Below, in pieces: positions 176 through 40,548 of a DNA stretch of 40,953 nt. The translations under genes were made by a program, and so were the position numbers. The notes beneath the pieces are model-generated. The model was given only the letters and a program-made list of their open reading frames with translations, was not told the DNA's origin and ran no database searches. Within the stretch, counting starts at the first letter, position 1; each line of letters starts with the position of its first letter. Source of the stretch: Escherichia phage vB_Ec_Tarrare; the sequence record OQ507919.1, one strand, 5' to 3'.

Positions 176-1294
176 ATGAACCCAATGACCATCTCTGCTC
201 GTGTAGCCACCATCCAGAATCTGCCTATCTGTGAACTTGATAAGCGTCAAGGTCTTCTGGTAGCACTGGCGGCTGACATCGTGAACCACGAGACTGAGAA
301 CGGGAAACTAACGCAAGCCGAAGGTAACAACGCTCTCGAATCCATGCCATACTGGACAACTCTCAACGAGTACATGCGAGGCGCTGGATTCATTAAGCTG
401 GGTAACGGTCACTTCTCTGCTGCGTATCGTCACCACTTGTTGCCTCAGAAGGTCATCAAGGTTGGCTTTAAGAAAGAGGATTCAGGTGCAGCTTATGCGG
501 CCTTCTGCCGTATGCACCAAGGCAAGCAAGGCATCCCTACCATCCATGACATTCAACGTCACGCTGGCTGCTACACAGTGGTTCTTGATGAACTCGAAGC
601 ACTACCTCAGGACTATTGGGGTGATGTGGACGACAACCATGAAGTGTACGAACAGTTCGACATGGTGCGTGATGTAATCAACTACGAAGAATCACGAGAA
701 TGCTTTGGTAGTGAACTGATGGAAGACCTATACACTACCGCTAAGTCAATCCGCAAGTTCTTTGAGGGAATCGCTCGTTTCGATATGCACTCAGGTAACG
801 CGATGATGGATAAACACGGTAACTTGGTCATTACAGACCCTGTGTCTTTCAGCGCTGACGACGCACTACCTCAGGAAGACTTCATGGTAGACCCTGATGA
901 ACTCCTAAAGGAAATCGAACTGATCGCTGAGCGCCGCATGATTGAGCGCTGCAAGGCTCGCAAAGCTAAGCGTGACCCTAACGGTGAGTTCCGTAGAGGT
1001 CTGAAAGTACGCGCTAAGCGTAAGAAAGCGGCTGATAAGTGGGTTAAACATCTTGAGAATGAAATGCGTAAACGCCGCTTGGACGATAAGGCAGAACGTA
1101 GAGTCGAGAAGCGCGCTCGTCAGTGGTTCGGTACTTCAATTTGGCAAGCTCAGTGGCTGAATAACTTGGTAGGTGACTTCAAGGTTATCGAAGAACGCGC
1201 TGCGGCTGCGATGATGGTTCACGATGCGGTAGCTATCCAAGCTGGTCAAGCGCTGCATGTAGACAAAATTCTTGACGATATGTTCCAAGGCTGA
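176..1294 (+). CDS. 0.7: gene 0.7 protein kinase / host transcription shut-off protein
   Basis: 373 aa from the ATG at 176 (SD agga upstream; the ORF-track start at 56 is a TTG inside the upstream hairpin). MNPMTISARVATIQNLPICELDKRQG ... GFKKEDSGAAYAAFCRMHQG matches the T7 gp0.7 N-terminal kinase domain as recalled. Confidence 0.9.
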   Translation: MNPMTISARVATIQNLPICELDKRQGLLVALAADIVNHETENGKLTQAEGNNALESMPYWTTLNEYMRGAGFIKLGNGHFSAAYRHHLLPQKVIKVGFKKEDSGAAYAAFCRMHQGKQGIPTIHDIQRHAGCYTVVLDELEALPQDYWGDVDDNHEVYEQFDMVRDVINYEESRECFGSELMEDLYTTAKSIRKFFEGIARFDMHSGNAMMDKHGNLVITDPVSFSADDALPQEDFMVDPDELLKEIELIAERRMIERCKARKAKRDPNGEFRRGLKVRAKRKKAADKWVKHLENEMRKRRLDDKAERRVEKRARQWFGTSIWQAQWLNNLVGDFKVIEERAAAAMMVHDAVAIQAGQALHVDKILDDMFQG

Positions 1295-8884: not shown

Positions 8885-10931
<2,047 letters not shown>

Positions 10932-20124: not shown

Positions 20125-20136
20125 TGAGGTATAAAT

Positions 20137-20159
20137 TAATACGACTCACTATTGGGAGA
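20137..20159 (+). promoter_or_regulatory. phage RNAP promoter (phi10)
   Basis: taatacgactcactattgggaga. Confidence 0.9.
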
Positions 20160-20254
20160 AGGAAACGACTCCCATGAGTCACACATTGAGAACCAACTCG
20201 ATTCAAGTAGTGACTTAACTTTAATTGTGCAATTAACATAAGGAGATATAGATT

Positions 20255-21292
20255 ATGGCAACTATGACTGGTGGACAGAAGCTGGGTACTAACCAAGGTA
20301 AAGGCGCTACAGGTACTGACGCATTGGCGTTGTTCTTGAAGGTGTTTGGTGGTGAGGTACTGACTGCATTCGCTCGTACTTCCGTGACTACCTCTCGTCA
20401 CATGGTTCGCTCCATCTCTAGCGGTAAATCCGCTCAGTTCCCTGTGATTGGGCGCACTCAGGCTGCATACCTGAAACCTGGTGAGAACTTGGACGATATT
20501 CGTAAAGACATCAAGCACACTGAGAAGACCATCAACATTGACGGTTTGCTGACTGCTGACGTTCTGATTTACGATATTGAAGACGCAATGAACCACTATG
20601 ACGTTCGCTCTGAGTACACCTCTCAGCTTGGTGAGTCTCTGGCTATGGCCGCTGATGGTGCTGTTCTGGCTGAGATTGCCGCTCTGTGTAATCTGGCGTC
20701 TGGCTCCAACGAGAACATCGCAGGTCTTGGCTCCGCGAGTGTAATCGAGTTCGCAGAGAAGAAAACTGAGATTACCGATCAGGTTGAGTTAGGTAAGAAG
20801 ATCATTGCTGGTCTGACCAAGGCTCGTGCTGCTCTTACCAAGAACTATGTCCCTGCCTCAGACCGAGTGTTCTTCTGTGACCCTGATAGCTACAGCGCGA
20901 TTCTGGCTGCTCTGATGCCTAACGCTGCAAACTACGCTGCATTGATTGACCCTGAGCGTGGCTCTATCCGCAACGTTATGGGCTTCGAGGTTGTAGAGGT
21001 TCCTCACTTAACCGCTGGTGGTGCTGGTACTAAGCGTGAAGGCACCGATGGTCAACTGCATGGCTTCCCTGCAACTGCTACAGACACCGCTAAGGTAGCT
21101 GTGGACACTGTGGTTGGTGTATTCATGCACCGTTCTGCTGTAGGTACTGTTAAGCTGCGTGACTTGGCTCTGGAACGTGCTCGTCGAGCTAACTACCAAG
21201 CTGACCAGATCATCGCTAAGTACGCTATGGGTCACGGTGGTCTGCGTCCAGAAGCTGCTGGTGCTATCGTTTTCAAAAGCCGTAATTCATGA
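20255..21292 (+). CDS. 10: major capsid protein 10A
   Basis: 345 aa; strong SD (aaggag); collinear with T7 10A. Confidence 0.97.
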   Translation: MATMTGGQKLGTNQGKGATGTDALALFLKVFGGEVLTAFARTSVTTSRHMVRSISSGKSAQFPVIGRTQAAYLKPGENLDDIRKDIKHTEKTINIDGLLTADVLIYDIEDAMNHYDVRSEYTSQLGESLAMAADGAVLAEIAALCNLASGSNENIAGLGSASVIEFAEKKTEITDQVELGKKIIAGLTKARAALTKNYVPASDRVFFCDPDSYSAILAALMPNAANYAALIDPERGSIRNVMGFEVVEVPHLTAGGAGTKREGTDGQLHGFPATATDTAKVAVDTVVGVFMHRSAVGTVKLRDLALERARRANYQADQIIAKYAMGHGGLRPEAAGAIVFKSRNS

Positions 21293-21392
21293 GGGAGCCT
21301 CTCTGGTGACTGCTAGTGCTGGGGAGGCCGAATCTACGGCACCTGTACGAAAACCGAGAGCGCCTCGACGTAAGAAGTCAGAGGACTCATGA
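21267..21392 (+). other. 10: C-terminal extension frame for minor capsid protein 10B (recoding)
   Basis: An ORF in the +1 frame relative to 10A overlaps its last codons and stays open for 33 codons past the 10A stop (SFSKAVIHEGASLVTASAGEAESTAPVRKPRAPRRKKSEDS), ending just before Tphi. The frame is read directly from the sequence; the recoding event is inferred. Confidence 0.45.
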
Positions 21393-21403
21393 TAAAACGT
21401 AAC

Positions 21404-21447
21404 TAGCGTAACCCCTTGGGGCCTTAACGGGTCTTGAGGGGTTTTTC
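21404..21447 (+). terminator. Tphi-like phage RNAP terminator
   Basis: ctagcgtaaccccttggggccttaacgggtcttgaggggtttttcg; G/C-rich hairpin plus T-run, near-identical to T7 Tphi. Confidence 0.9.
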
Positions 21448-21467
21448 GCTTTAATGGGGAGAACTTT

Positions 21468-22058
21468 ATGCGCTCATTTGATATGAACGTTGAGACAGGC
21501 GCTGAGCTAGCTGCTGTTAACGATATTCTGGCTTCTATCGGTGAACCTCCGGTTTCAACCTTAGAGGGAGACTCTAACGCAGACGTAGCGAACGCACGAA
21601 GGATTCTCAACAAGATTAACAGACAGATTCAGTCACGAGGATGGACATTCAACATTGAGGAAGGCGTGGAGTTACTTCCCGACTCCTTCTCCAACTTGAT
21701 TACTTTCAGTGACGACTACCTGTCCGTAATGGCTACATCCGGTCAGACAGTTTACGTCAACCGTGGTGGTTACTTATTTGACCGTACTGCTCGTACAGAC
21801 CGATTCGAATCTCCTGTATCTGTCAACTTGATTCGTCTTCGCGATTACGATGAGATGCCTGAGTGCTTCCGCTACTGGATTGTCACCAAGGCTTCCCGTC
21901 AGTTCAACAACCGATTCTTTGGGGCACCTGAGGTTGAAGGTGTTCTCCAAGAGGAAGAAGATGAAGCACGTAGAATGTGTATGGAGTACGAGATGGATTA
22001 CGGTGGTTACAACATGCTAGACGGTGACGCGTTCACTTCTGGTCTACTAAGCCGCTAA
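21468..22058 (+). CDS. 11: tail tubular protein A
   Basis: 196 aa; same length and position as T7 gp11. Confidence 0.95.
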
Positions 22059-22075
22059 TAGCTAAAGGAGGTCTC

Positions 22076-24460
22076 ATGGCTCTAATAAGTCAATCCATTA
22101 AGAACTTGAAGGGTGGTATCAGTCAACAGCCTGACATCCTTCGTTATCCAGACCAAGGTGCGATACAGGTAAACGGATGGTCTTCTGAGTCTGAGGGCCT
22201 CCAAAAGCGTCCACCTATGGTGTTCCTAAAGACCCTTGGTGCTGCAAACCTATTAGGGAGCACTCCGTATGTCCACCTGATAAACCGTGATGAGTTCGAA
22301 CAGTATTACGCAGTGTTCACAGGAACAGGTGTACGTGTGTTCGACTTGAAGGGAAACGAGAAGACTGTACGCTATCCCAACGGTCAAAGTTACGTAACAA
22401 CTGGTAATCCACGTAATGACCTCCGAATGGTCACTGTGGCAGACTATACGTTCGTAGTGAACCGTAATGTTGTCGTTAAGAAGAATCCCAATTCGGTTAA
22501 CCTTAAAGGTTTCCGTGACAACGGTGATGCTCTCGTTAACGTCCGTGGTGGTCAATACGGTCGAACCTTGAAGATCAAAATCAACGGTGCTGAGAAGGCG
22601 AAGTACGAGATTCCTCAAGGAGACAAACCAGAACACGTTAAGAATACCGACGCTCAGTTCTTGGTCACGGAGTTGACAAACCAGTTAAAGAAGAACTTGG
22701 CTGGATGGACTATAAATGCTGGTGAGGGATTCATTCACATTGTGGCTCCAGCTAACGCTACCATTGATACTATAGCCACTGAGGATGGTTACGCAGACCA
22801 ACTTATTAACCCTGTCACCCACTACGCTCAGTCCTTCGCAAAGCTTCCACCTAATGCTCCTAACGGGTACATGGTGAAGATCGTTGGCGATGTGTCTAAG
22901 TCTGCCGATCAGTATTACGTTCGGTATGACGCTAAGAAGAAAGTGTGGGCTGAGGACTTAGGGTGGAACGTTGAGAACGCCTTATCGTGGGACACAATGC
23001 CACATGCTCTGGTTCGTGCCGCGGATGGTAACTTTGACTTCAAGCGATTGGATTGGGCACATAAGAAGGTTGGTGACGTTGACACTAACCCTTGGCCTTC
23101 ATTCGTGGACTCTAAGATTAACGATGTGTTCTTCTTCCGTAACCGTTTAGGCTTCCTTAGCGGTGAGAACATTATTCTGAGTCGTACAGCGAAATACTTC
23201 AACTTCTTCCCTGCGTCAGTGGCTAACCTAAGCGATGATGACCCTATTGACGTGGCGGTAAGTGTTAACCGTATTTCAATCTTGAAGTACGCAGTACCGT
23301 TCGCTGAGGAACTCCTGCTGTGGTCTGATGAAGCTCAGTTTGTGTTGACGTCTGCTGGTATCCTATCGGCTCGCTCAGTAGAACTCAACCTAACCACACA
23401 GTTCGACGTTCAGGATAAAGCTAGACCTTTCGGTATCGGGCGTAATATCTACTTCGCGTCACCTCGTGCAAGCTTTACGTCCATCAACCGTTACTATGCG
23501 GTTCAGGATGTATCTGCCGTTAAGAACGCTTCTGATATTACAGCACATGTTCCTAACTATATTCCTAATGGAGTGTTTAGTATCTCAGGTTCCGGTGCTG
23601 AGAACTTCTGTTCGGTACTTACTTCTGGAGACCCTAACAAGATCTTCATTTATAAGTTCCTATACCTAGATGAAGAGTTAAGACAGCAATCTTGGTCACA
23701 TTGGGACTTTGGCCCTAACGTCAACATCCTTGCGTGTCACTCAATAGGTTCCGAAATGTATGTACTAATGAACAATAAGTACAACACTTTCCTGTCCAAA
23801 ATCTCGTTCACTAAGAATGCTATAGACTTAAACTCTGAGCCTTACAGGGCGTTCTTGGACTTCAAGGTTCCTTACATCATCCCTGCTGGAACGTACAATG
23901 ACGATACGTACACTACGACTATCAGTCTGCGAACAATCTATGGGGCTAACTTTGATGTAGGCAAAGTGACGGTCTTGGAGAAGGACGGTAAGATAACAGA
24001 GTTCGAACCTCCTAAGGGTGGTTGGAATGCAGACCCTAACTTGCGACTAGTAGGGAACCTACAAGGTGCGCTAGTGTTCGTAGGGTTTAACATTCAGTTC
24101 ATCTATGAGTTCTCTAAGTTCCTCATTAAACAGACTGCTGACGATGGGTCAACCTCTACGGAAGACATTGGTCGCCTACAGTTACGAAGAGCGTGGGTGA
24201 ACTATGAGGAATCAGGTACGTTCGACATTTACGTGACAAACCAGTCTTCATCTTGGAAATACACAATGGCTGGCTCACGTCTAGGCTCTAGCACTCTGAG
24301 AACTGGACGACTGAACCTAGGTACTGGTCAATATCGATTCCCTGTGGTCGGTAACGCCAAGTACAACACTGTGTATATATCTTCCGATGAGACTACCCCT
24401 TTGAACATCATTGGGTGTGGATGGGAAGGTAATTACCTGCGGAGAAGTTCTGGTATTTAA
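22076..24460 (+). CDS. 12: tail tubular protein B
   Basis: 794 aa; same length and position as T7 gp12. Confidence 0.95.
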   Translation: MALISQSIKNLKGGISQQPDILRYPDQGAIQVNGWSSESEGLQKRPPMVFLKTLGAANLLGSTPYVHLINRDEFEQYYAVFTGTGVRVFDLKGNEKTVRYPNGQSYVTTGNPRNDLRMVTVADYTFVVNRNVVVKKNPNSVNLKGFRDNGDALVNVRGGQYGRTLKIKINGAEKAKYEIPQGDKPEHVKNTDAQFLVTELTNQLKKNLAGWTINAGEGFIHIVAPANATIDTIATEDGYADQLINPVTHYAQSFAKLPPNAPNGYMVKIVGDVSKSADQYYVRYDAKKKVWAEDLGWNVENALSWDTMPHALVRAADGNFDFKRLDWAHKKVGDVDTNPWPSFVDSKINDVFFFRNRLGFLSGENIILSRTAKYFNFFPASVANLSDDDPIDVAVSVNRISILKYAVPFAEELLLWSDEAQFVLTSAGILSARSVELNLTTQFDVQDKARPFGIGRNIYFASPRASFTSINRYYAVQDVSAVKNASDITAHVPNYIPNGVFSISGSGAENFCSVLTSGDPNKIFIYKFLYLDEELRQQSWSHWDFGPNVNILACHSIGSEMYVLMNNKYNTFLSKISFTKNAIDLNSEPYRAFLDFKVPYIIPAGTYNDDTYTTTISLRTIYGANFDVGKVTVLEKDGKITEFEPPKGGWNADPNLRLVGNLQGALVFVGFNIQFIYEFSKFLIKQTADDGSTSTEDIGRLQLRRAWVNYEESGTFDIYVTNQSSSWKYTMAGSRLGSSTLRTGRLNLGTGQYRFPVVGNAKYNTVYISSDETTPLNIIGCGWEGNYLRRSSGI

Positions 24461-24542: not shown

Positions 24543-24962
24543 ATGATGTACATTAGGCCAACTACAGAAGGTGACATTAAGATTTTCAAACCATCACGAG
24601 AGGATAGACTTGAGGCTTTTGCTGCTGGGCATGACGCTACGTTTCCAGATGCCTCAGAGTGTGTTACTCTTTGGGGTAACGGAATGCCATTAGCTATAGG
24701 AGGTAACTGTGAGAATCAAGTTTGGTTCGTAACTAGTTATCATGTTGCACATTTGACACCTAGAGAAAAGATGGAGTTCCGAAAGGTAATCATTGAGTAT
24801 CGAGACAAGATGTTGGAACAGTACGAGACTCTTTGGAATTACGTTTGGGTAGGCAATAAGTCCCACATAAGGTTCCTCAAGACTATCGGTGCAGAGTTCC
24901 ATGAGGTCTACGGTAATGATGGTCAATTCCAGTTATTCACAATAAAGAAGGAGGCAACATGA
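24543..24962 (+). CDS. 13: gene 13 protein (internal virion / assembly protein)
   Basis: 139 aa; conserved blocks FPDASECVTL..PLAIGGNC, WFVTS, YRDKMLEQYETLWNYVWVGNKSHIRFLKTIGA as in T7 gp13 as recalled. Confidence 0.8.
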   Translation: MMYIRPTTEGDIKIFKPSREDRLEAFAAGHDATFPDASECVTLWGNGMPLAIGGNCENQVWFVTSYHVAHLTPREKMEFRKVIIEYRDKMLEQYETLWNYVWVGNKSHIRFLKTIGAEFHEVYGNDGQFQLFTIKKEAT

Positions 24963-25354
24963 AGCTCTGCAAGAAGTGTAACACAGTGAAGCCTATGGAC
25001 GAGTTTCACAATAAGAAAGGTAGGAAGGATGGTAAGGCGTCTACTTGTAAAGCCTGTGTCAACAATAGAGTGAGACCTTACGATTCCGAGAAGAACAAGA
25101 ACATGCACTTGAAGAAACTGTATGGTATAACCCTTGATGAATACAACGCTATGTTGGAAGCTCAAGGTCACTGCTGTGCAATCTGCAAAGGAACCGAAGG
25201 GATGAAGCTCGGTAGGAACATGGCGGTAGACCACTGCCACACAACGGGTAAAGTCCGAGGGATACTTTGCTCCCACTGTAATCGTGGCTTAGGGTTCTTC
25301 AAGGACAACATTGAGAGCCTCAAAGCTGCCATTAAGTATCTAGGAGGTGAATGA
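24959..25354 (+). CDS. Endonuclease VII-family (T4 gp49-like zinc-binding) nuclease, probable free-standing homing endonuclease
   Basis: 131 aa; CxxC ... HCCAICKG ... DHCHTTGKVRGILCSHCN is the Endo VII His-Cys box; start ATG overlaps the gene 13 stop and the stop overlaps the gene 14 start. T7 has no gene at this position as far as I recall. Confidence 0.8.
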   Translation: MKLCKKCNTVKPMDEFHNKKGRKDGKASTCKACVNNRVRPYDSEKNKNMHLKKLYGITLDEYNAMLEAQGHCCAICKGTEGMKLGRNMAVDHCHTTGKVRGILCSHCNRGLGFFKDNIESLKAAIKYLGGE

Positions 25355-32303: not shown

Positions 32304-34229
32304 ATGGCTAACGTAATCAAGACCGTTTTGACTTATCAGCTAAATGGTACTACTCGTGATTTTAATATTCCGTTTGAGTATCTGGCTCGTAAGTTTGTTG
32401 TGGTCACACTGTTAGGTAAAGACCGTAAGGTACTTACTCTGAATACTGATTATCGATTTGCAACTCGTACTACCATCTCCACCACTAAGGCTTGGGGACA
32501 GGCAGATGGTTACACTCACATTGAGTTACGCCGAAACACCTCAGCGACTGAACGCTTGGTGGACTTTACTGACGGTTCGATTCTACGCGCGTATGACCTG
32601 AACGTTGCTCAGATTCAGACTATGCATATTGCAGAAGAAGCTCGTGACCTTACTGCTGATACTATCGGTGTCAACAACAATGGGGACTTAGATGCTCGAA
32701 ACCGTAAGATTGTAAACTTGGCAGACGCGGTTAACCCTCGTGATGCTGTCCCTCTAGGTCAGATTCAGGGGATAAACCAGAATGCTTGGCAAGCACGAAA
32801 TGAGGCTCAACAGTTCAGAAACCAAGCTGAGACCTTTAAGAACCAAGCCCAAGGTTTCCGTAACGAAGCAGAAGCGTTCCGAAACACTACTAACCAGAAC
32901 GCACAGACTACTACAGCCGATCGTGCAGCCGCTCTACAGTCAAAGGAAGAAGCTGAGCGCGCTCGTGCTGCTGCCCAACAGTCACAACAACAGGCTGCTG
33001 CATCTCAGACAGCCGCAAGTAACTCAGCCGCTGAGGCTAAGCGTGAAGCAGATCGCTCCAAAACAGAGGCTGATAGGGCTAAAGTAGAGGCCGATAAGTT
33101 AGGAAACTGGAACCAACTTGCAGGTACTGTGGATAACGTGACTGGTACTAGCGTGACCTTTAAGGACAAGGTAGGTGCTCTAGGTGGGTTCGTATCGGCT
33201 ACTCCTGATGGATACCGATTGAAGTACACTAACTTCTCTACGATTCTACGTCAAGACGCTAATGCGTTCTACATACTGACTACCAATAAGGGAGATGTTA
33301 ACGGGCCATTCAACTCGCTACGTCCTATGTACATTGACAACGCATCGGGATGGGTGACGTTTGGTAACGGTGCGGGTGTTAATGGTAGACTCACTACGAC
33401 AGAGGGTGTTGCGGTTCCTAACTCTAAGATGTACTTCAACAAGAGCCTGATTCAGTTGGAGAGCCAGAACTTCACAGACAGGGCGGTGAACATGCGAGTT
33501 TGGGGTAACGCCTCAGGTCGTAATAACGTGTGTGAATGGGGCGATGCTCACGGTTGGCTGATGTATGTACAGCGTAGGGATTGGAATGCTAACGCTGGGT
33601 CAAACATCCAGTTAAGTGTTAACGGACAGGTGGTGGCTAATAACATTATATCCACTGGAGGGGCTTACTTCCAGAATGGACATGCTGTAACGCTGGAATC
33701 TGCGTCCAATATGGCACACTACATCATCTCTAAGGATGGCGGCAGGAACAACTGGTACGTTGGTCGTGGGACTAATGGCAACAATGACGTCGCTCTCCAC
33801 TCTTATGTACACGGAACTACTCTTTCTCTACGCCAGAACTATGCGCAGGTCAACAAGCACTTCTATGTAGGCTCCGCTGTAGTAGCAACTGATGGTAACG
33901 TTCAGGGTACTAAATGGGGCGGTAAGTGGCTTGATGTGTTCCTGAATGATACATACATTAAGAAGACCAAAGCTTGGACTCAGGTATGGTCTGGAAGTGC
34001 TGGTGGTGGTGTCAGTGTGACCGTATCCCAAGACTTGCGATTCCGTAATATCTGGATTAAGTGCGCCAACAACTCTTGGAACCACTTCCGTACAGGCCCT
34101 GATGGTATTTACTTCATTGCGTCTGATGGTGGCTGGTTGCGATTCCAGATTCACTCCAACGGTAGAGGCTTCAAGAACATTGCAGACAGTCGCTCTGTTC
34201 CTCAGGCTATCATGGTGGAGAACGAATAA
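32304..34229 (+). CDS. 17: tail fibre protein
   Basis: 641 aa; N-terminal tail-attachment domain (MANVIKTVLTYQLNGTTRDFNIPFEYLARKFVVVTL) and C-terminal tip (...WIKCANNSWNHFRTGPDGIYFIASDGGWLRFQIHSNGRGFKNIADSRSVPQAIMVENE) match T7 gp17; the central part differs and is longer. Confidence 0.95.
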   Translation: MANVIKTVLTYQLNGTTRDFNIPFEYLARKFVVVTLLGKDRKVLTLNTDYRFATRTTISTTKAWGQADGYTHIELRRNTSATERLVDFTDGSILRAYDLNVAQIQTMHIAEEARDLTADTIGVNNNGDLDARNRKIVNLADAVNPRDAVPLGQIQGINQNAWQARNEAQQFRNQAETFKNQAQGFRNEAEAFRNTTNQNAQTTTADRAAALQSKEEAERARAAAQQSQQQAAASQTAASNSAAEAKREADRSKTEADRAKVEADKLGNWNQLAGTVDNVTGTSVTFKDKVGALGGFVSATPDGYRLKYTNFSTILRQDANAFYILTTNKGDVNGPFNSLRPMYIDNASGWVTFGNGAGVNGRLTTTEGVAVPNSKMYFNKSLIQLESQNFTDRAVNMRVWGNASGRNNVCEWGDAHGWLMYVQRRDWNANAGSNIQLSVNGQVVANNIISTGGAYFQNGHAVTLESASNMAHYIISKDGGRNNWYVGRGTNGNNDVALHSYVHGTTLSLRQNYAQVNKHFYVGSAVVATDGNVQGTKWGGKWLDVFLNDTYIKKTKAWTQVWSGSAGGGVSVTVSQDLRFRNIWIKCANNSWNHFRTGPDGIYFIASDGGWLRFQIHSNGRGFKNIADSRSVPQAIMVENE

Positions 34230-35299: not shown

Positions 35300-36139
35300 A
35301 TGGCCCTACACGAAGTCAACCTGTGGAATTTCAATTCCCGCACACATTCGTCTCTCGACGTTGGAGCGCCTTACGGTGGCCTCTACTCTGGACGCATAGA
35401 CTTACCTGAAAGTTACCGAAAGTCTAAGATGTTCAAGGTTAGAGTTTCTGGAACACACGCTCTAGAGACCTACGCTAGCTATTCTGCTATGCTTACAGGA
35501 ATCGGAGGAACGTCGGTGTCAAACCTAAATGGTAGAGAAGCGATCATTGAGTTTAACACATCGTCCTCAACAAACGGGTTGCGAGGCATCTACTCCGTAG
35601 AGGGCGTGTTTGTTAGGGATTGGCATCCAGACGAAGCGTTGACAAAAGGTGCCGCCGAGATGTTCATAAAGCCGCATGGTGTAGACGAGTACGTTTGGAC
35701 TGGTTCTCAGTCTGTAGGTAACGGCTCAGAGTTAAACCTATTGTCCCTAAACGGGTTCTCTACCGATGTTGCCACTGGAGCCACTACCATTAACGCTGCG
35801 TCTCTTGTGGTGCTTCCTGCGGAGGTGAAGAGTAGAGGGCTGATCATTTCTGTAATCCTAGATGGCACTTATGACCAACAAGGGCCACATGAGATGAAGG
35901 TTCAGATACGAAGCGCTGATGGTAAGACGTTGCAACAATCTAGCCCATTGTATGTTCTGGACAAGAACGTCAAGAAGCTTACCGCAACATTTGCAGACTA
36001 CACCCTTGGTGTGTATGACGAAAGTAGTACCACTGGATTTAAGCTTGTATTTATCAATGATAGTACATCCAATATGTCACTGACTGGTGTACGAATCGTT
36101 GTTCAAAATATCTCTAATCCAGACTTCACACGTTCTTAA
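35300..36139 (+). CDS. hypothetical protein, no T7 counterpart (first gene of a two-gene late-region insertion)
   Basis: 279 aa ORF; SD aaggag 7 nt upstream of the ATG, which sits 1 nt after the Rz stop. Rich in S/T/G/N/V and apparently beta-rich; no signal peptide, transmembrane helix or catalytic motif recognised by eye. Confidence 0.8.
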   Translation: MALHEVNLWNFNSRTHSSLDVGAPYGGLYSGRIDLPESYRKSKMFKVRVSGTHALETYASYSAMLTGIGGTSVSNLNGREAIIEFNTSSSTNGLRGIYSVEGVFVRDWHPDEALTKGAAEMFIKPHGVDEYVWTGSQSVGNGSELNLLSLNGFSTDVATGATTINAASLVVLPAEVKSRGLIISVILDGTYDQQGPHEMKVQIRSADGKTLQQSSPLYVLDKNVKKLTATFADYTLGVYDESSTTGFKLVFINDSTSNMSLTGVRIVVQNISNPDFTRS

Positions 36140-36154: not shown

Positions 36155-37267
36155 ATGTTAGTTACTCGAACGGCAACTTACACCGATTGGATATTCATGG
36201 CTGCTCACGCAAACGAGAGGGTCGATGACATTGGTCAAGGTCTCTTAGAGGGTCATATTTATTTCCGTTATGCCTATGACATGCTGAACGATGGTGACGA
36301 GGTAGTACGAGAGGTATCACATGTACATCTTAGCGATGGGTCAACATACCCTCTAGGAGAAGGAGTGTCCTCCGAAAAGATAGACATCACGTACCACGGT
36401 CTCACTAGTGATGGTAGCGTATACCTTGAGGTTAATGGACATAAGGGAATTGGTGTTAGTAGCATTACTCGTACCCTGACCATTCAATATGACGATGGGA
36501 AGGTTCCTGTTCTGGACACTGACCAACTCAAAGGGATTCTTTCAGAACTTCATGACAGCCTTGAGGCTAGTATGATTAATACCGCAAACGCTGTCAAAGA
36601 GGAACTGCGAGACGAGTTGGAAACCAAGGTGCTGGACGCCAAGGAGTCCTGCAACGAGGCTACCGAGGCTGTTAACACCGAGTTGACCGCCAAGATCGCA
36701 AATGAGAGTGGTCGCATTGATAGCCTAACGAGTACCCTTGTGACTGTTCAGGGTAACTTGGATACTACCATGAAGCGCGTTGGTAAAATCTCTCCCAATA
36801 TGGGTAAGTGGTCTTTCGGTCGATACACCATCAACTCGAAGCAGACCAACAACTTACTGGCTGCTGCGCCTACAGCGTTGGCGCCGGAAGGGTCTATCTT
36901 CACATATGATGATACCAACAAGGTCTTTAAGATGTCTGGAGGTGCTGCCCCAACAGACAGGATTCTGCGGGTTACGTTCACTACAGGGATTGACACGTTG
37001 AGTGCTGACTACCGAGGATACTTATCGTTCATGCTGCGAAACTCCAGTGGTGGAGTCTTGGCTAGCGACATGAGGTTCCTAAACATGGATGCTGGTCTTA
37101 CCCAACAACTGAGCGCCATACAGTTCAGCCTTGAGCTATACTTAGAGGCGTCTAAAGGTCATCCAGTATACAACTCAGGTATCCAGTTAGCTTTCCACAA
37201 CAGTGCTAACACGGCTCTTGCCATACTGTCCGGTGGTGTTGCAAGCTTCACCTTACTGACAGCTTAA
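36155..37267 (+). CDS. hypothetical protein with central coiled-coil segment, no T7 counterpart (second gene of the insertion)
   Basis: 370 aa ORF; SD aaggag 8 nt upstream. Residues ~121-210 (DTDQLKGILSELHDSLEASMINTANAVKEELRDELETKVLDAKESCNEATEAVNTELTAKIANESGRIDSLTSTL) look alpha-helical with a heptad-like pattern, flanked by beta-rich N- and C-terminal regions. Confidence 0.8.
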   Translation: MLVTRTATYTDWIFMAAHANERVDDIGQGLLEGHIYFRYAYDMLNDGDEVVREVSHVHLSDGSTYPLGEGVSSEKIDITYHGLTSDGSVYLEVNGHKGIGVSSITRTLTIQYDDGKVPVLDTDQLKGILSELHDSLEASMINTANAVKEELRDELETKVLDAKESCNEATEAVNTELTAKIANESGRIDSLTSTLVTVQGNLDTTMKRVGKISPNMGKWSFGRYTINSKQTNNLLAAAPTALAPEGSIFTYDDTNKVFKMSGGAAPTDRILRVTFTTGIDTLSADYRGYLSFMLRNSSGGVLASDMRFLNMDAGLTQQLSAIQFSLELYLEASKGHPVYNSGIQLAFHNSANTALAILSGGVASFTLLTA

Positions 37268-40104: not shown

Positions 40105-40548
40105 ATGTATCAAGGATTAACTATATCAAATGGTGTCTTAATAAGGGAGTCAACAGGTAAACCTTGTAAGACATTCTCTAACGGTAAATACCTAAGGATA
40201 AACCATAAAGGCCGGATGTATTACCTACACCGTGTCTTGTGGGAACTTACACACGGCTCAATACCTAAGGGTTACACTATAGACCATATAGACGGTAATC
40301 CTACAAATAACAATATTGACAACCTAAGGTTAGCCTCTTATAGTGAGAACAACATGAATCGGGTATCTACGGTAGACAATGGCCTACCTCAAGGTATCTA
40401 CTGGTGTAACTCTAAGAGTCGCTATGTGGCTCAGGTGGTAGCTCAAGGCGTTAAGAGAACAAAGACCTCAAAGAGCCTTGATGTAGTCACTGAGTGGGTT
40501 AAAGAGACACGAAAAGAGATTCATAAAGAATTTGCCATTAAGTGTTGA
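40105..40548 (+). CDS. HNH-AP2 homing endonuclease-like protein in the left-end leader
   Basis: 147 aa from the ATG at 40105 (SD aggagg); YTIDHIDGNPTNNNIDNLRLASYSENNMN is the HNH motif, with an AP2-like C-terminal half; paralogous in type to gene 3.8. T7 has no gene between phiOL and the A promoters as far as I recall. Confidence 0.8.
   Translation: MYQGLTISNGVLIRESTGKPCKTFSNGKYLRINHKGRMYYLHRVLWELTHGSIPKGYTIDHIDGNPTNNNIDNLRLASYSENNMNRVSTVDNGLPQGIYWCNSKSRYVAQVVAQGVKRTKTSKSLDVVTEWVKETRKEIHKEFAIKC

What the first reader, a model, noticed from the sequence alone, without database searches (positions are those of the whole stretch)
21267..21392. Capsid 10B extension frame is +1 relative to 10A; the -1 frame closes after four codons
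The ORF overlapping the end of gene 10 (track ORF 21159-21392) is offset by +1 nt from the 10A frame and stays open for 33 codons past the 10A stop, ending just before Tphi as 10B does in T7. The -1 frame from the gttttcaaaag region hits TAA at 21283-21285. T7 10B is, as I recall, made by a -1 shift, so here either the recoding mechanism differs (+1 or -2) or the minor capsid form is not made.
Basis: partly seen in the sequence, partly recalled or inferred. Interest (0 to 1): 0.4.

Follow-up and report, generated by a model that had tools for sequence, protein, structure and literature searches.

The report
One-base deletion misframes T7-like 10B
In this T7-like coliphage, one missing base just after the capsid gene's ribosome slip site puts the usual tail-end extension of the minor capsid protein out of reach of the normal one-base backward slip, so the protein is probably lost or needs an unusual two-base slip.

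Summary
The window is Escherichia phage vB_Ec_Tarrare. Gene 10A (20255-21292) ends at TGA. The -1 frame closes at TAA 21283-85. The +1 (= -2) frame stays open to 21392, just before Tphi, and encodes a homologue of the T7-type 10B extension.

The cause is one missing base. In every T7-clade relative examined, GTTTTC and the GTAA that holds the 10A stop are 8 nt apart; here they are 7 nt apart. The ancestral 10A stop has therefore moved into the -1 frame, and the 10B frame has moved to +1. All 80 viral-contig relatives and 35 metagenome relatives keep the -1 layout; three more metagenome contigs end too early to show the full extension.

The deletion is probably real. An independent read assembly is identical across the site, and no T7 homologue elsewhere in the genome is frame-broken.

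Most likely the canonical -1 slip now yields only a 343-aa 10A-like protein, and 10B is lost or made in traces. A -2 slip on the U-run, helped by a retained downstream hairpin, is not excluded. Only mass spectrometry can decide between these. This is a modest, testable curiosity seen in a single genome.

The parts
20137..20159 (+). phi10-like T7-type late promoter (TAATACGACTCACTATTGGGAGA) driving gene 10
   Evidence: Read directly. It is one of 8 TAATACGACTCACTA copies in the window.
20255..21292 (+). Gene 10A, major capsid protein: 345 aa, stop TGA 21290-92
   Evidence: ORF list. Pfam Gp10A-like PF21703, E 2.9e-106. Identical to WEU68278.1 of Escherichia phage vB_Ec_Tarrare. 85% identical to T7 10A in a single frame.
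21268..21274 (+). Slip site C_GUU_UUC, the counterpart of T7 G_GUU_UUC. The U-run 21270-21273 lets the A-site tRNA-Phe re-pair on UUU at both -1 and -2.
   Evidence: Aligned with the T7 heptamer. The same C_GUU_UUC variant occurs in Rambo (L001) and L018, which keep the -1 layout.
21275..21281 (+). 7-nt interval AAAAGCC between the slip site and the ancestral stop. Relatives have 8 nt here, so this is where the single base is missing.
   Evidence: Alignments A1 and A2. All 20 unique T7-clade relatives and all 16 true IMG/VR pattern hits have 8 nt.
21283..21285 (+). TAA, the ancestral 10A stop (conserved GTAA in all relatives), now in the -1 frame, where it ends any -1 shift product after F-Q-K-P
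21282..21392 (+). 10B-type extension coding sequence in the +1/-2 frame (VIHEGASLVTASAGEAESTAPVRKPRAPRRKKSEDS, then TGA TAA)
   Evidence: Open frame. Frame-specific homology to the Rambo 10B extension, z 7.6.
21279..21340 (+). Predicted RNA hairpin. The outer stem GCCGUAAUUC / GAAU(C)UACGGC covers the ancestral stop. The inner stem is GCCUCUCUGGU / GCUGGGGAGGC.
   Evidence: MFE -27.5 kcal/mol, z -1.8; pair list. The homologous hairpin in 20 relatives is 97% paired, against 30-55% in slid controls, and 3 pairs covary.
21410..21448 (+). Tphi-like transcription terminator. It contains the CCCC that in T7 belongs to the distant 3' frameshift stimulator.
   Evidence: Terminator scan. Aligned with T7 Tphi. 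The CCCC role is from PMC5009743.

Best explanation
The window is phage vB_Ec_Tarrare, a T7-like phage about 80% identical to T7.

Shown:
- Relative to every relative examined, it lacks one base in the 8-nt stretch between the gene 10 slip site (GUU_UUC) and the 10A stop.
- The ancestral TAA stop has therefore moved into the -1 frame.
- 10A now runs two codons further, to a TGA.
- The sequence homologous to the 10B extension has moved from the -1 to the +1/-2 frame.

Inferred:
- The deletion is genuine rather than a sequencing error.
- The family's normal -1 slip still happens, but it now produces only a 343-aa protein (...AIVFQKP) that is nearly indistinguishable from 10A.
- A T7-type 10B is therefore no longer made at the usual level of about 10%. 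It is either lost or reduced to whatever trace a -2 slip gives.
- The heptamer, hairpin, extension ORF and terminator are intact because the deletion is evolutionarily recent, and/or because residual expression keeps them under selection.
For: - One-base gap. The 8-nt spacing is invariant in 20 unique T7-clade relatives and in 16 IMG/VR pattern hits.
- Family layout: 80 of 80 IMG/VR relatives have the -1 frame open across the slip site and for 16-93 codons past the stop, while +1 closes within 2-17 codons. The same holds for 35 of the 38 metagenome relatives with at least 74% identity; the other three contigs end inside the extension.
- Frame-specific homology of the window's +1 frame to Rambo 10B.
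- Adding back one A gives a canonical 343-aa 10A (...VFKKP*) and a -1 extension starting FQKAVIHEG.
- Evidence that the sequence is real: Logan contig SRR25747514_80 is 100% identical over 20131-22541, and all 40-odd T7 homologues are intact in single frames.
- Natural damage to 10B has a precedent: L069 carries a premature TAG inside its extension. More distant relatives lack an extension altogether.
Against: - The -1 extension is kept in every close relative, which argues that it is selected. A natural isolate without it is therefore unexpected.
- Tarrare sits on a long branch: its capsid is at most 89% identical to anything known. Yet the extension ORF is still open, still resembles a 10B tail (acidic Ser/Thr/Ala-rich, then basic), and still stops just before Tphi.
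- Its hairpin is kept through lineage-specific compensating changes. That fits continued use as well as it fits a recent deletion.
- There is only one genome. No protein data exist, and no paper on this phage was found.
Confidence: 0.5

Rival explanations
1. The deletion is real and the extension is still attached to the capsid protein, by a -2 ribosomal slip at GUU_UUC. The A-site tRNA-Phe moves from UUC 21272-74 to UUU 21270-72. The product is a 379-aa, 39.9-kDa protein reading ...AIVF-SKAVIHEG.... The retained hairpin 4 nt downstream and the Tphi element stimulate the slip. In effect, the -1 cassette has been converted into a -2 cassette, with the -1 outcome ending at once at TAA.
For: - The U4 run gives perfect A-site re-pairing at -2 as well as at -1. 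P-site tRNA-Val re-pairing is equally poor for CGU (-1) and UCG (-2), read directly.
- Heptamer, hairpin, open extension and terminator are all retained on a long branch.
- -2 shifting is documented for phage Mu, for arterivirus nsp2TF and for Trichomonas vaginalis virus 1, whose relatives TVV2-4 use -1 (PMC5009743).
- -2 is favoured when the spacer is 1-2 nt shorter than the -1 optimum (PMC3458567). Measured to the conserved GUAA stem, the spacer here is 1 nt shorter than in all relatives.
Against: - There is no protein evidence.
- Measured to the base of the MFE stem, the spacer is 4 nt here and 4-6 nt in relatives, T7 included, so the 'shorter spacer' argument is weak.
- The hairpin z-score is only -1.8.
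- The spacer-length work was done with eukaryotic ribosomes on U6A.
- No other family member of about 120 uses this layout.
- Retention of all the elements is equally explained by a recent deletion.
Confidence: 0.25
2. The missing base is a sequencing or assembly error, for example A5 read as A4 at 21275-78. The true phage then has the ordinary T7 layout: a 343-aa 10A ending at TAA and a -1 10B.
For: - A single added base restores every family feature at once.
- Rambo and several other relatives have AAAAA at this position.
- The deposited annotation has no 10B, since the accession after 10A is gp11, so the anomaly would not have been noticed.
- The site is one of the few places where an indel breaks no annotated gene.
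Against: - An independent k-mer assembly of SRR25747514 gives the identical sequence.
- No T7 homologue across roughly 33 kb of coding sequence shows a frame break, so the overall indel error rate is very low. The chance that a lone error falls in this 8-nt interval is then of the order of 1e-4.
- A4 is a short homopolymer.
Confidence: 0.18
3. The extension is reached by a true +1 shift: tRNA-Lys slips from AAA 21275-77 to AAA 21276-78, giving a 378-aa protein reading ...AIVFK-AVIHEG.... Alternatively, it is expressed on its own from GTG 21306, which follows the Shine-Dalgarno-like GAGGGAG at 21291-97.
For: - AAA_A allows perfect P-site re-pairing at +1.
- Listeria phage PSA uses +1 where its relatives A118 and A500 use -1 for a coat-protein extension (PMC5009743).
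- GAGGGAG lies 8 nt upstream of an in-frame GTG.
Against: - The next 0-frame codon, AGC, is neither a stop nor a rare codon.
- There is no upstream Shine-Dalgarno stimulator of the prfB kind.
- The hairpin is positioned for a shift at GUU_UUC, not at AAA.
- A free 28-aa peptide would not be tethered to the capsid, and nothing similar is conserved in relatives.
Confidence: 0.05

Closest known systems
Bacteriophage T7 gene 10 10A/10B programmed -1 frameshift (G_GUU_UUC, about 10%; 3' stimulator including CCCC in Tphi)
   Same: Same gene and the same position three codons from the ancestral stop. The GUU_UUC core, a homologous extension, the hairpin region and a Tphi with CCCC are all shared.
   Different: The extension is in the +1/-2 frame and the -1 frame is closed after four codons. 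One base is missing from the 8-nt interval. The heptamer's first base is C rather than G, as also in Rambo and L018.
Yersinia phage vB_YenP_Rambo gene 10 region (OK042080.1), the nearest relative of the extension
   Same: Identical ATCGTTTTC slip site. The extension is 75% identical at the DNA level and homologous at the protein level.
   Different: Rambo has AAAAACCA (8 nt) before GTAA and the canonical -1 layout. Its annotators called the extension a separate 34-aa ORF.
Arterivirus (PRRSV) nsp2TF -2/-1 frameshift site
   Same: The slip site is a GUU_UUY-type U-run. The productive ORF is in the -2 frame. These details are from my own knowledge of G_GUU_UUU and of nsp2N, whose -1 product is ended almost at once by a stop. 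-2 use at 20% efficiency is cited in PMC5009743.
   Different: That system uses eukaryotic ribosomes and a protein trans-activator bound to a C-rich motif, and it is proven experimentally. Here nothing shows that a -2 product exists.
Listeria phage PSA capsid +1 frameshift versus -1 in A118/A500; Trichomonas vaginalis virus 1 (-2) versus TVV2-4 (-1)
   Same: These are precedents for close relatives reaching the same kind of C-terminal extension through different shift directions (PMC5009743).
   Different: Those sites have dedicated shift motifs and are conserved within lineages. Tarrare is a single genome that differs from the family by one base.

Membership tests
T7-type gene 10 -1 programmed frameshift cassette (10A/10B) | Slippery heptamer X_XXY_YYZ (G_GUU_UUC) a few codons before the 10A stop | tested here: met
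   C_GUU_UUC at 21268-74 aligns with the T7 site. The first base is C, as in Rambo and L018, which keep the -1 layout.
T7-type gene 10 -1 programmed frameshift cassette (10A/10B) | Extension ORF in the -1 frame, open across the slip site and well past the 10A stop | tested here: not met
   The -1 frame stops at TAA 21283-85 and TGA 21307-09. 80 of 80 IMG/VR relatives and 35 of 38 metagenome relatives meet this feature; the other three contigs end inside the extension.
T7-type gene 10 -1 programmed frameshift cassette (10A/10B) | Extension homologous to 10B tails, ending just before Tphi | tested here: met
   The +1-frame peptide against Rambo 10B gives z 7.6. The ORF ends at 21392 and Tphi starts at 21410.
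T7-type gene 10 -1 programmed frameshift cassette (10A/10B) | 3' stimulatory sequence (CCCC in the terminator over 200 nt downstream in T7) | tested here: inconclusive
   AACCCCTTGGGG is present in Tphi, but only about 140 nt from the slip site because the extension is shorter. Its function was not tested.
T7-type gene 10 -1 programmed frameshift cassette (10A/10B) | A longer minor capsid protein is actually produced | not testable with these tools
   No proteomic data exist, and no paper on this phage was found.
-2 programmed ribosomal frameshifting (phage Mu, arterivirus nsp2TF, TVV1) | Slip site that allows tRNA re-pairing two bases upstream | tested here: met
   The U-run 21270-73 gives UUU at -2 for the A-site tRNA-Phe. 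P-site re-pairing is poor, but no worse than for -1.
-2 programmed ribosomal frameshifting (phage Mu, arterivirus nsp2TF, TVV1) | Long ORF in the -2/+1 frame overlapping the slip site | tested here: met
   The frame is open from 21144 to 21392.
-2 programmed ribosomal frameshifting (phage Mu, arterivirus nsp2TF, TVV1) | Stimulator at a spacing suited to -2, and conservation of the layout in relatives | tested here: inconclusive
   A hairpin is predicted 4 nt downstream, but T7 shows the same MFE spacing. No relative shares the layout.
+1 programmed frameshifting (prfB, Listeria phage PSA cps type) | Shift-prone P-site codon followed by a stop or slowly decoded A-site codon, often with an upstream SD | tested here: not met
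   AAA_A allows re-pairing, but the next codon is AGC and no Shine-Dalgarno sequence lies 3 nt upstream. The 10A stop context UCA_UGA cannot re-pair at +1.
Gp10A-like major capsid protein (Pfam PF21703) | Match to the family profile above the gathering score | tested here: met
   355.7 bits against a cutoff of 27.

The most novel reading that the evidence does not exclude
A single-base deletion in the spacer has converted a conserved -1 frameshift cassette into a working -2 cassette in a natural E. coli phage. The same U-run, hairpin and terminator element would now deliver the 10B extension by a two-base slip, and the one-base slip would terminate immediately. That would be the first -2 recoding event in a capsid gene of the T7 family. 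It would also be a natural experiment on how spacer length and mRNA tension choose between -1 and -2 on bacterial ribosomes.
Probability: 0.2. Interest if true: 0.75.

Novelty: new variant of a known kind. Interest (0 to 1): 0.35.

Why it matters
The T7 10A/10B frameshift is a textbook recoding site, yet its stimulators are still not fully explained. It also underlies T7 phage display.

If Tarrare still makes 10B, it shows that a bacterial -1 site can be switched to -2 by one base. It would then be a ready-made natural construct for testing the mRNA-tension model in E. coli.

If Tarrare makes no 10B, it is a natural isolate showing that the extension, conserved in every close relative, can be dispensed with in the wild.

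Either way the genome needs a note. Automatic annotation will neither find 10B here nor flag its absence.

Tried and rejected
- **Independent copies of the site.** I searched with exact and gapped DNA patterns in IMG/VR and in metagenomes and found none.
- **Closer relatives, to date the deletion.** The protein-based scans found nothing above 89% capsid identity, and the 90% cluster is a singleton. The age of the deletion therefore cannot be estimated.
- **Loose 14-base pattern for 7-nt-spacer variants.** It returned only chance hits. The stricter pattern gave 16 true T7-clade hits, all with 8 nt, plus one chance hit (L272).
- **L132 and L129.** At first they looked like +1 layouts. On inspection they have no extension at all and the terminator follows directly, so they were rejected as precedents.
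- **Rfam.** There is no family in 21100-21500.
- **Original T7 frameshift papers.** PMC209055, PMC328964 and PMC5952207 are not held, so details of the T7 stimulators rest on the 2016 review.
- **Transcriptional slippage.** I considered it and rejected it from general knowledge: runs of four T or A are too short.
- **The 'shorter spacer favours -2' argument.** I examined it and downgraded it. MFE folds give 4 nt for both the window and T7.

Full report
**Identity of the window.** The 345-aa product of 20255-21292 is exactly WEU68278.1, the major capsid protein of Escherichia phage vB_Ec_Tarrare. That genome is 40,953 bp, the length of the window. The next protein accession is the gene 11 tail tubular protein, so the deposited record annotates no 10B. 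The genome is about 80% identical to T7 over most of its length, and no close record exists in the phage collection. The capsid matches Pfam Gp10A-like.

**Checking the observation.** 10A codons start at positions congruent to 2 mod 3 and end at TGA 21290-92. ORF 21159-21392 starts at positions congruent to 0 mod 3, so it lies in the +1 (equivalently -2) frame. It is open from 146 nt upstream of the 10A stop and for 33 codons past it. From the slip region the -1 frame reads CGU UUU CAA AAG CCG UAA, with TAA at 21283-85 and a second stop at 21307-09. A Tphi-like terminator follows at 21410-21443.

**Cause.** I aligned the window with T7, Rambo, WW2 and a Vi06-like Salmonella phage. The window is one base shorter between GTTTTC and the conserved GTAA that contains the 10A stop.

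- In 20 unique T7-clade sequences this interval is always 8 nt; in the window it is 7 nt.
- A specific pattern scan of IMG/VR found 16 true T7-clade loci, all with 8 nt. The one odd hit was a chance match.
- The deletion moves the ancestral TAA into the -1 frame. 10A reads on for two more codons to a TGA. The 10B coding sequence moves from -1 to +1.
- Adding back one A gives a 343-aa 10A (...VFKKP*) and a -1 extension FQKAVIHEG...EDS*.
- The window's +1 peptide is homologous to the Rambo 10B tail: score 58 against 23.7 +/- 4.5 for shuffles. The other frames are not.

**How unusual it is.** In all 80 best IMG/VR relatives the -1 frame is open through the slip site and for 38-93 codons past the stop. 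One exception, L069, has 16 codons because of a premature TAG. In all 80 the +1 frame closes within 2-17 codons. Of the 38 metagenome relatives with at least 74% capsid identity, 35 show the same layout and the other three contigs end inside the -1 extension. More distant relatives vary:

- some have no extension at all;
- some carry the extension in frame;
- some carry an Ig-like domain in the -1 frame, as reported for T3 (PMC5009743).

Apparent +1 cases such as L132 turned out to be non-coding sequence that runs into a terminator. The window is therefore the only +1 layout seen.

**Real or error?** A Logan assembly of run SRR25747514 contains a 2,411-bp contig that is 100% identical to 20131-22541, including the site. 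tblastn of T7 proteins finds each detected homologue (about 40) in one frame, nearly all at full or near-full length, and none is frame-broken. Indel errors are therefore rare in this assembly, and the chance that a lone error falls in this 8-nt interval is very small. I cannot tell whether that run is the authors' own data, and A4 versus A5 is a classic miscall. I put error at roughly 0.18.

**What the ribosome would do.** T7 shifts -1 on G_GUU_UUC in about 10% of translations. The heptamer alone gives less than 1% (PMC1635266). A CCCC in Tphi is part of a distant stimulator (PMC5009743).

- The window keeps GUU_UUC, with C upstream as in Rambo and L018, and it keeps Tphi.
- A -1 slip here yields ...AIVFQKP*, 343 aa and 36.23 kDa, essentially another 10A.
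- The extension can only be joined by a net +1 change.
- The four U's let the A-site tRNA-Phe re-pair on UUU at -2 as well as at -1, and P-site re-pairing is equally poor for both. A -2 slip would give ...AIVFSKAVIHEG..., 379 aa and 39.94 kDa.
- A +1 slip of tRNA-Lys on AAA_A would give a 378-aa product. It lacks a slow A-site codon and an upstream Shine-Dalgarno sequence, so I rate it lower.

**A conserved hairpin.** RNAalifold on 21 sequences predicts a long hairpin whose outer stem starts at the 10A stop (GUAAUGC pairing with GYRUUAC). Two inner stems follow.

- Pairing is 97%, against 30-55% when partners are slid, and three pairs change on both sides. The structure was derived from the same alignment, which inflates this contrast.
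- In the 20 relatives, third codon positions are invariant at 9 of 10 codons in the hairpin core, against 19 of 52 in the end of 10A (Fisher p = 0.0035). This suggests a constraint at the RNA level.
- Other subclades with unrelated extension sequences also fold into strong hairpins about 5 nt after the heptamer.
- The window keeps the hairpin at 21279-21340 with its own compensating changes. Its MFE is -27.5 kcal/mol with a modest z of -1.8.

**Does the spacer favour -2?** In a eukaryotic system, -2 shifting is optimal at spacers 1-2 nt shorter than those optimal for -1 (PMC3458567). Measured to the conserved GUAA stem, the window's spacer is 1 nt shorter than in relatives. Measured to the base of the MFE stem, it is 4 nt in both the window and T7. 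This argument is suggestive only.

**Verdict.**

| Reading | Probability |
|---|---|
| Real one-base deletion has disabled the family's -1 route to 10B, which is lost or reduced to traces | about 0.5 |
| Working -2 cassette | about 0.25 |
| Sequencing error | about 0.18 |
| True +1 shift or separate initiation | about 0.05 |

Precedents exist for relatives using different shift directions: Mu, arterivirus nsp2TF, TVV1 versus TVV2-4, and Listeria PSA versus A118. The notion of a tolerated indel rescued by low-level frameshifting is also established. Sequence alone cannot decide. Targeted mass spectrometry and a reporter assay would.

Noticed in passing
A2 columns 22-81; T7 locus L016 about 2531-2595; window 21279-21340: A conserved hairpin begins at the 10A stop codon in T7-clade phages. 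It shows some covariation and near-invariant synonymous sites (9/10 against 19/52, p = 0.0035). Unrelated extension sequences in other subclades also fold into strong hairpins about 5 nt after GTTTTC. It may be a proximal stimulator of the gene 10 frameshift, whose known stimulators are described in the 2016 review as unexplained.
   Followed up: partly
L069 (IMGVR_UViG_2700988866_000001), about 60 nt after its 10A stop: The -1 extension is interrupted by a premature TAG after 16 codons, and the rest of the 10B-like sequence continues in frame behind it. This is a second natural example of a damaged or altered 10B.
   Followed up: no
L123, L124, L129, L131, L132, L134; L133, L135; L126, L130: Capsid relatives at 62-72% identity show three other layouts. 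Some have no extension, with the terminator directly after 10A. Some have a longer 10A of 373-376 aa (L133, L135). Some have a long -1 extension that looks like an Ig/Big_2 domain (L126, L130). The extension is therefore an evolutionarily plastic module.
   Followed up: partly
window 35300-36139 and 36155-37267 (+): Two ORFs of 279 and 370 aa sit between gene 18.5 and gene 19, where T7 has only about 20 nt. Neither has a Pfam match or a T7 homologue.
   Followed up: partly
window 24959-25354 (+): A 131-aa ORF inserted between genes 13 and 14 matches Recombination endonuclease VII (PF02945, E 3e-26). It is probably a mobile nuclease gene.
   Followed up: partly
window 40228-40536 (+) and 8885-9247 (+): A second, diverged gene 3.8-like HNH endonuclease homologue (43% identical to T7 gp3.8) lies near the right end of the window, in addition to the syntenic copy.
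   Followed up: no
window 176-1291 and the left end: The gene 0.7 kinase homologue starts at 176, and tblastn finds no gene 0.3 (Ocr) homologue. The deposited sequence seems to start at a different point from T7, or the early region differs.
   Followed up: no
window 32304-34226 (+): The tail fibre gene 17 matches T7 in two pieces with different identity: the N-terminal part at 56% and the C-terminal part at 74%. This suggests a mosaic or an insertion.
   Followed up: no
L085 = Logan SRR25747514_80, ends at window 20131 and 22541: The independent contig breaks at the phi10 promoter repeat on the left, but on the right it breaks at a non-repeated position inside gene 12. The run may therefore be a mixture or have low coverage. 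Its relation to the GenBank record is unknown.
   Followed up: partly
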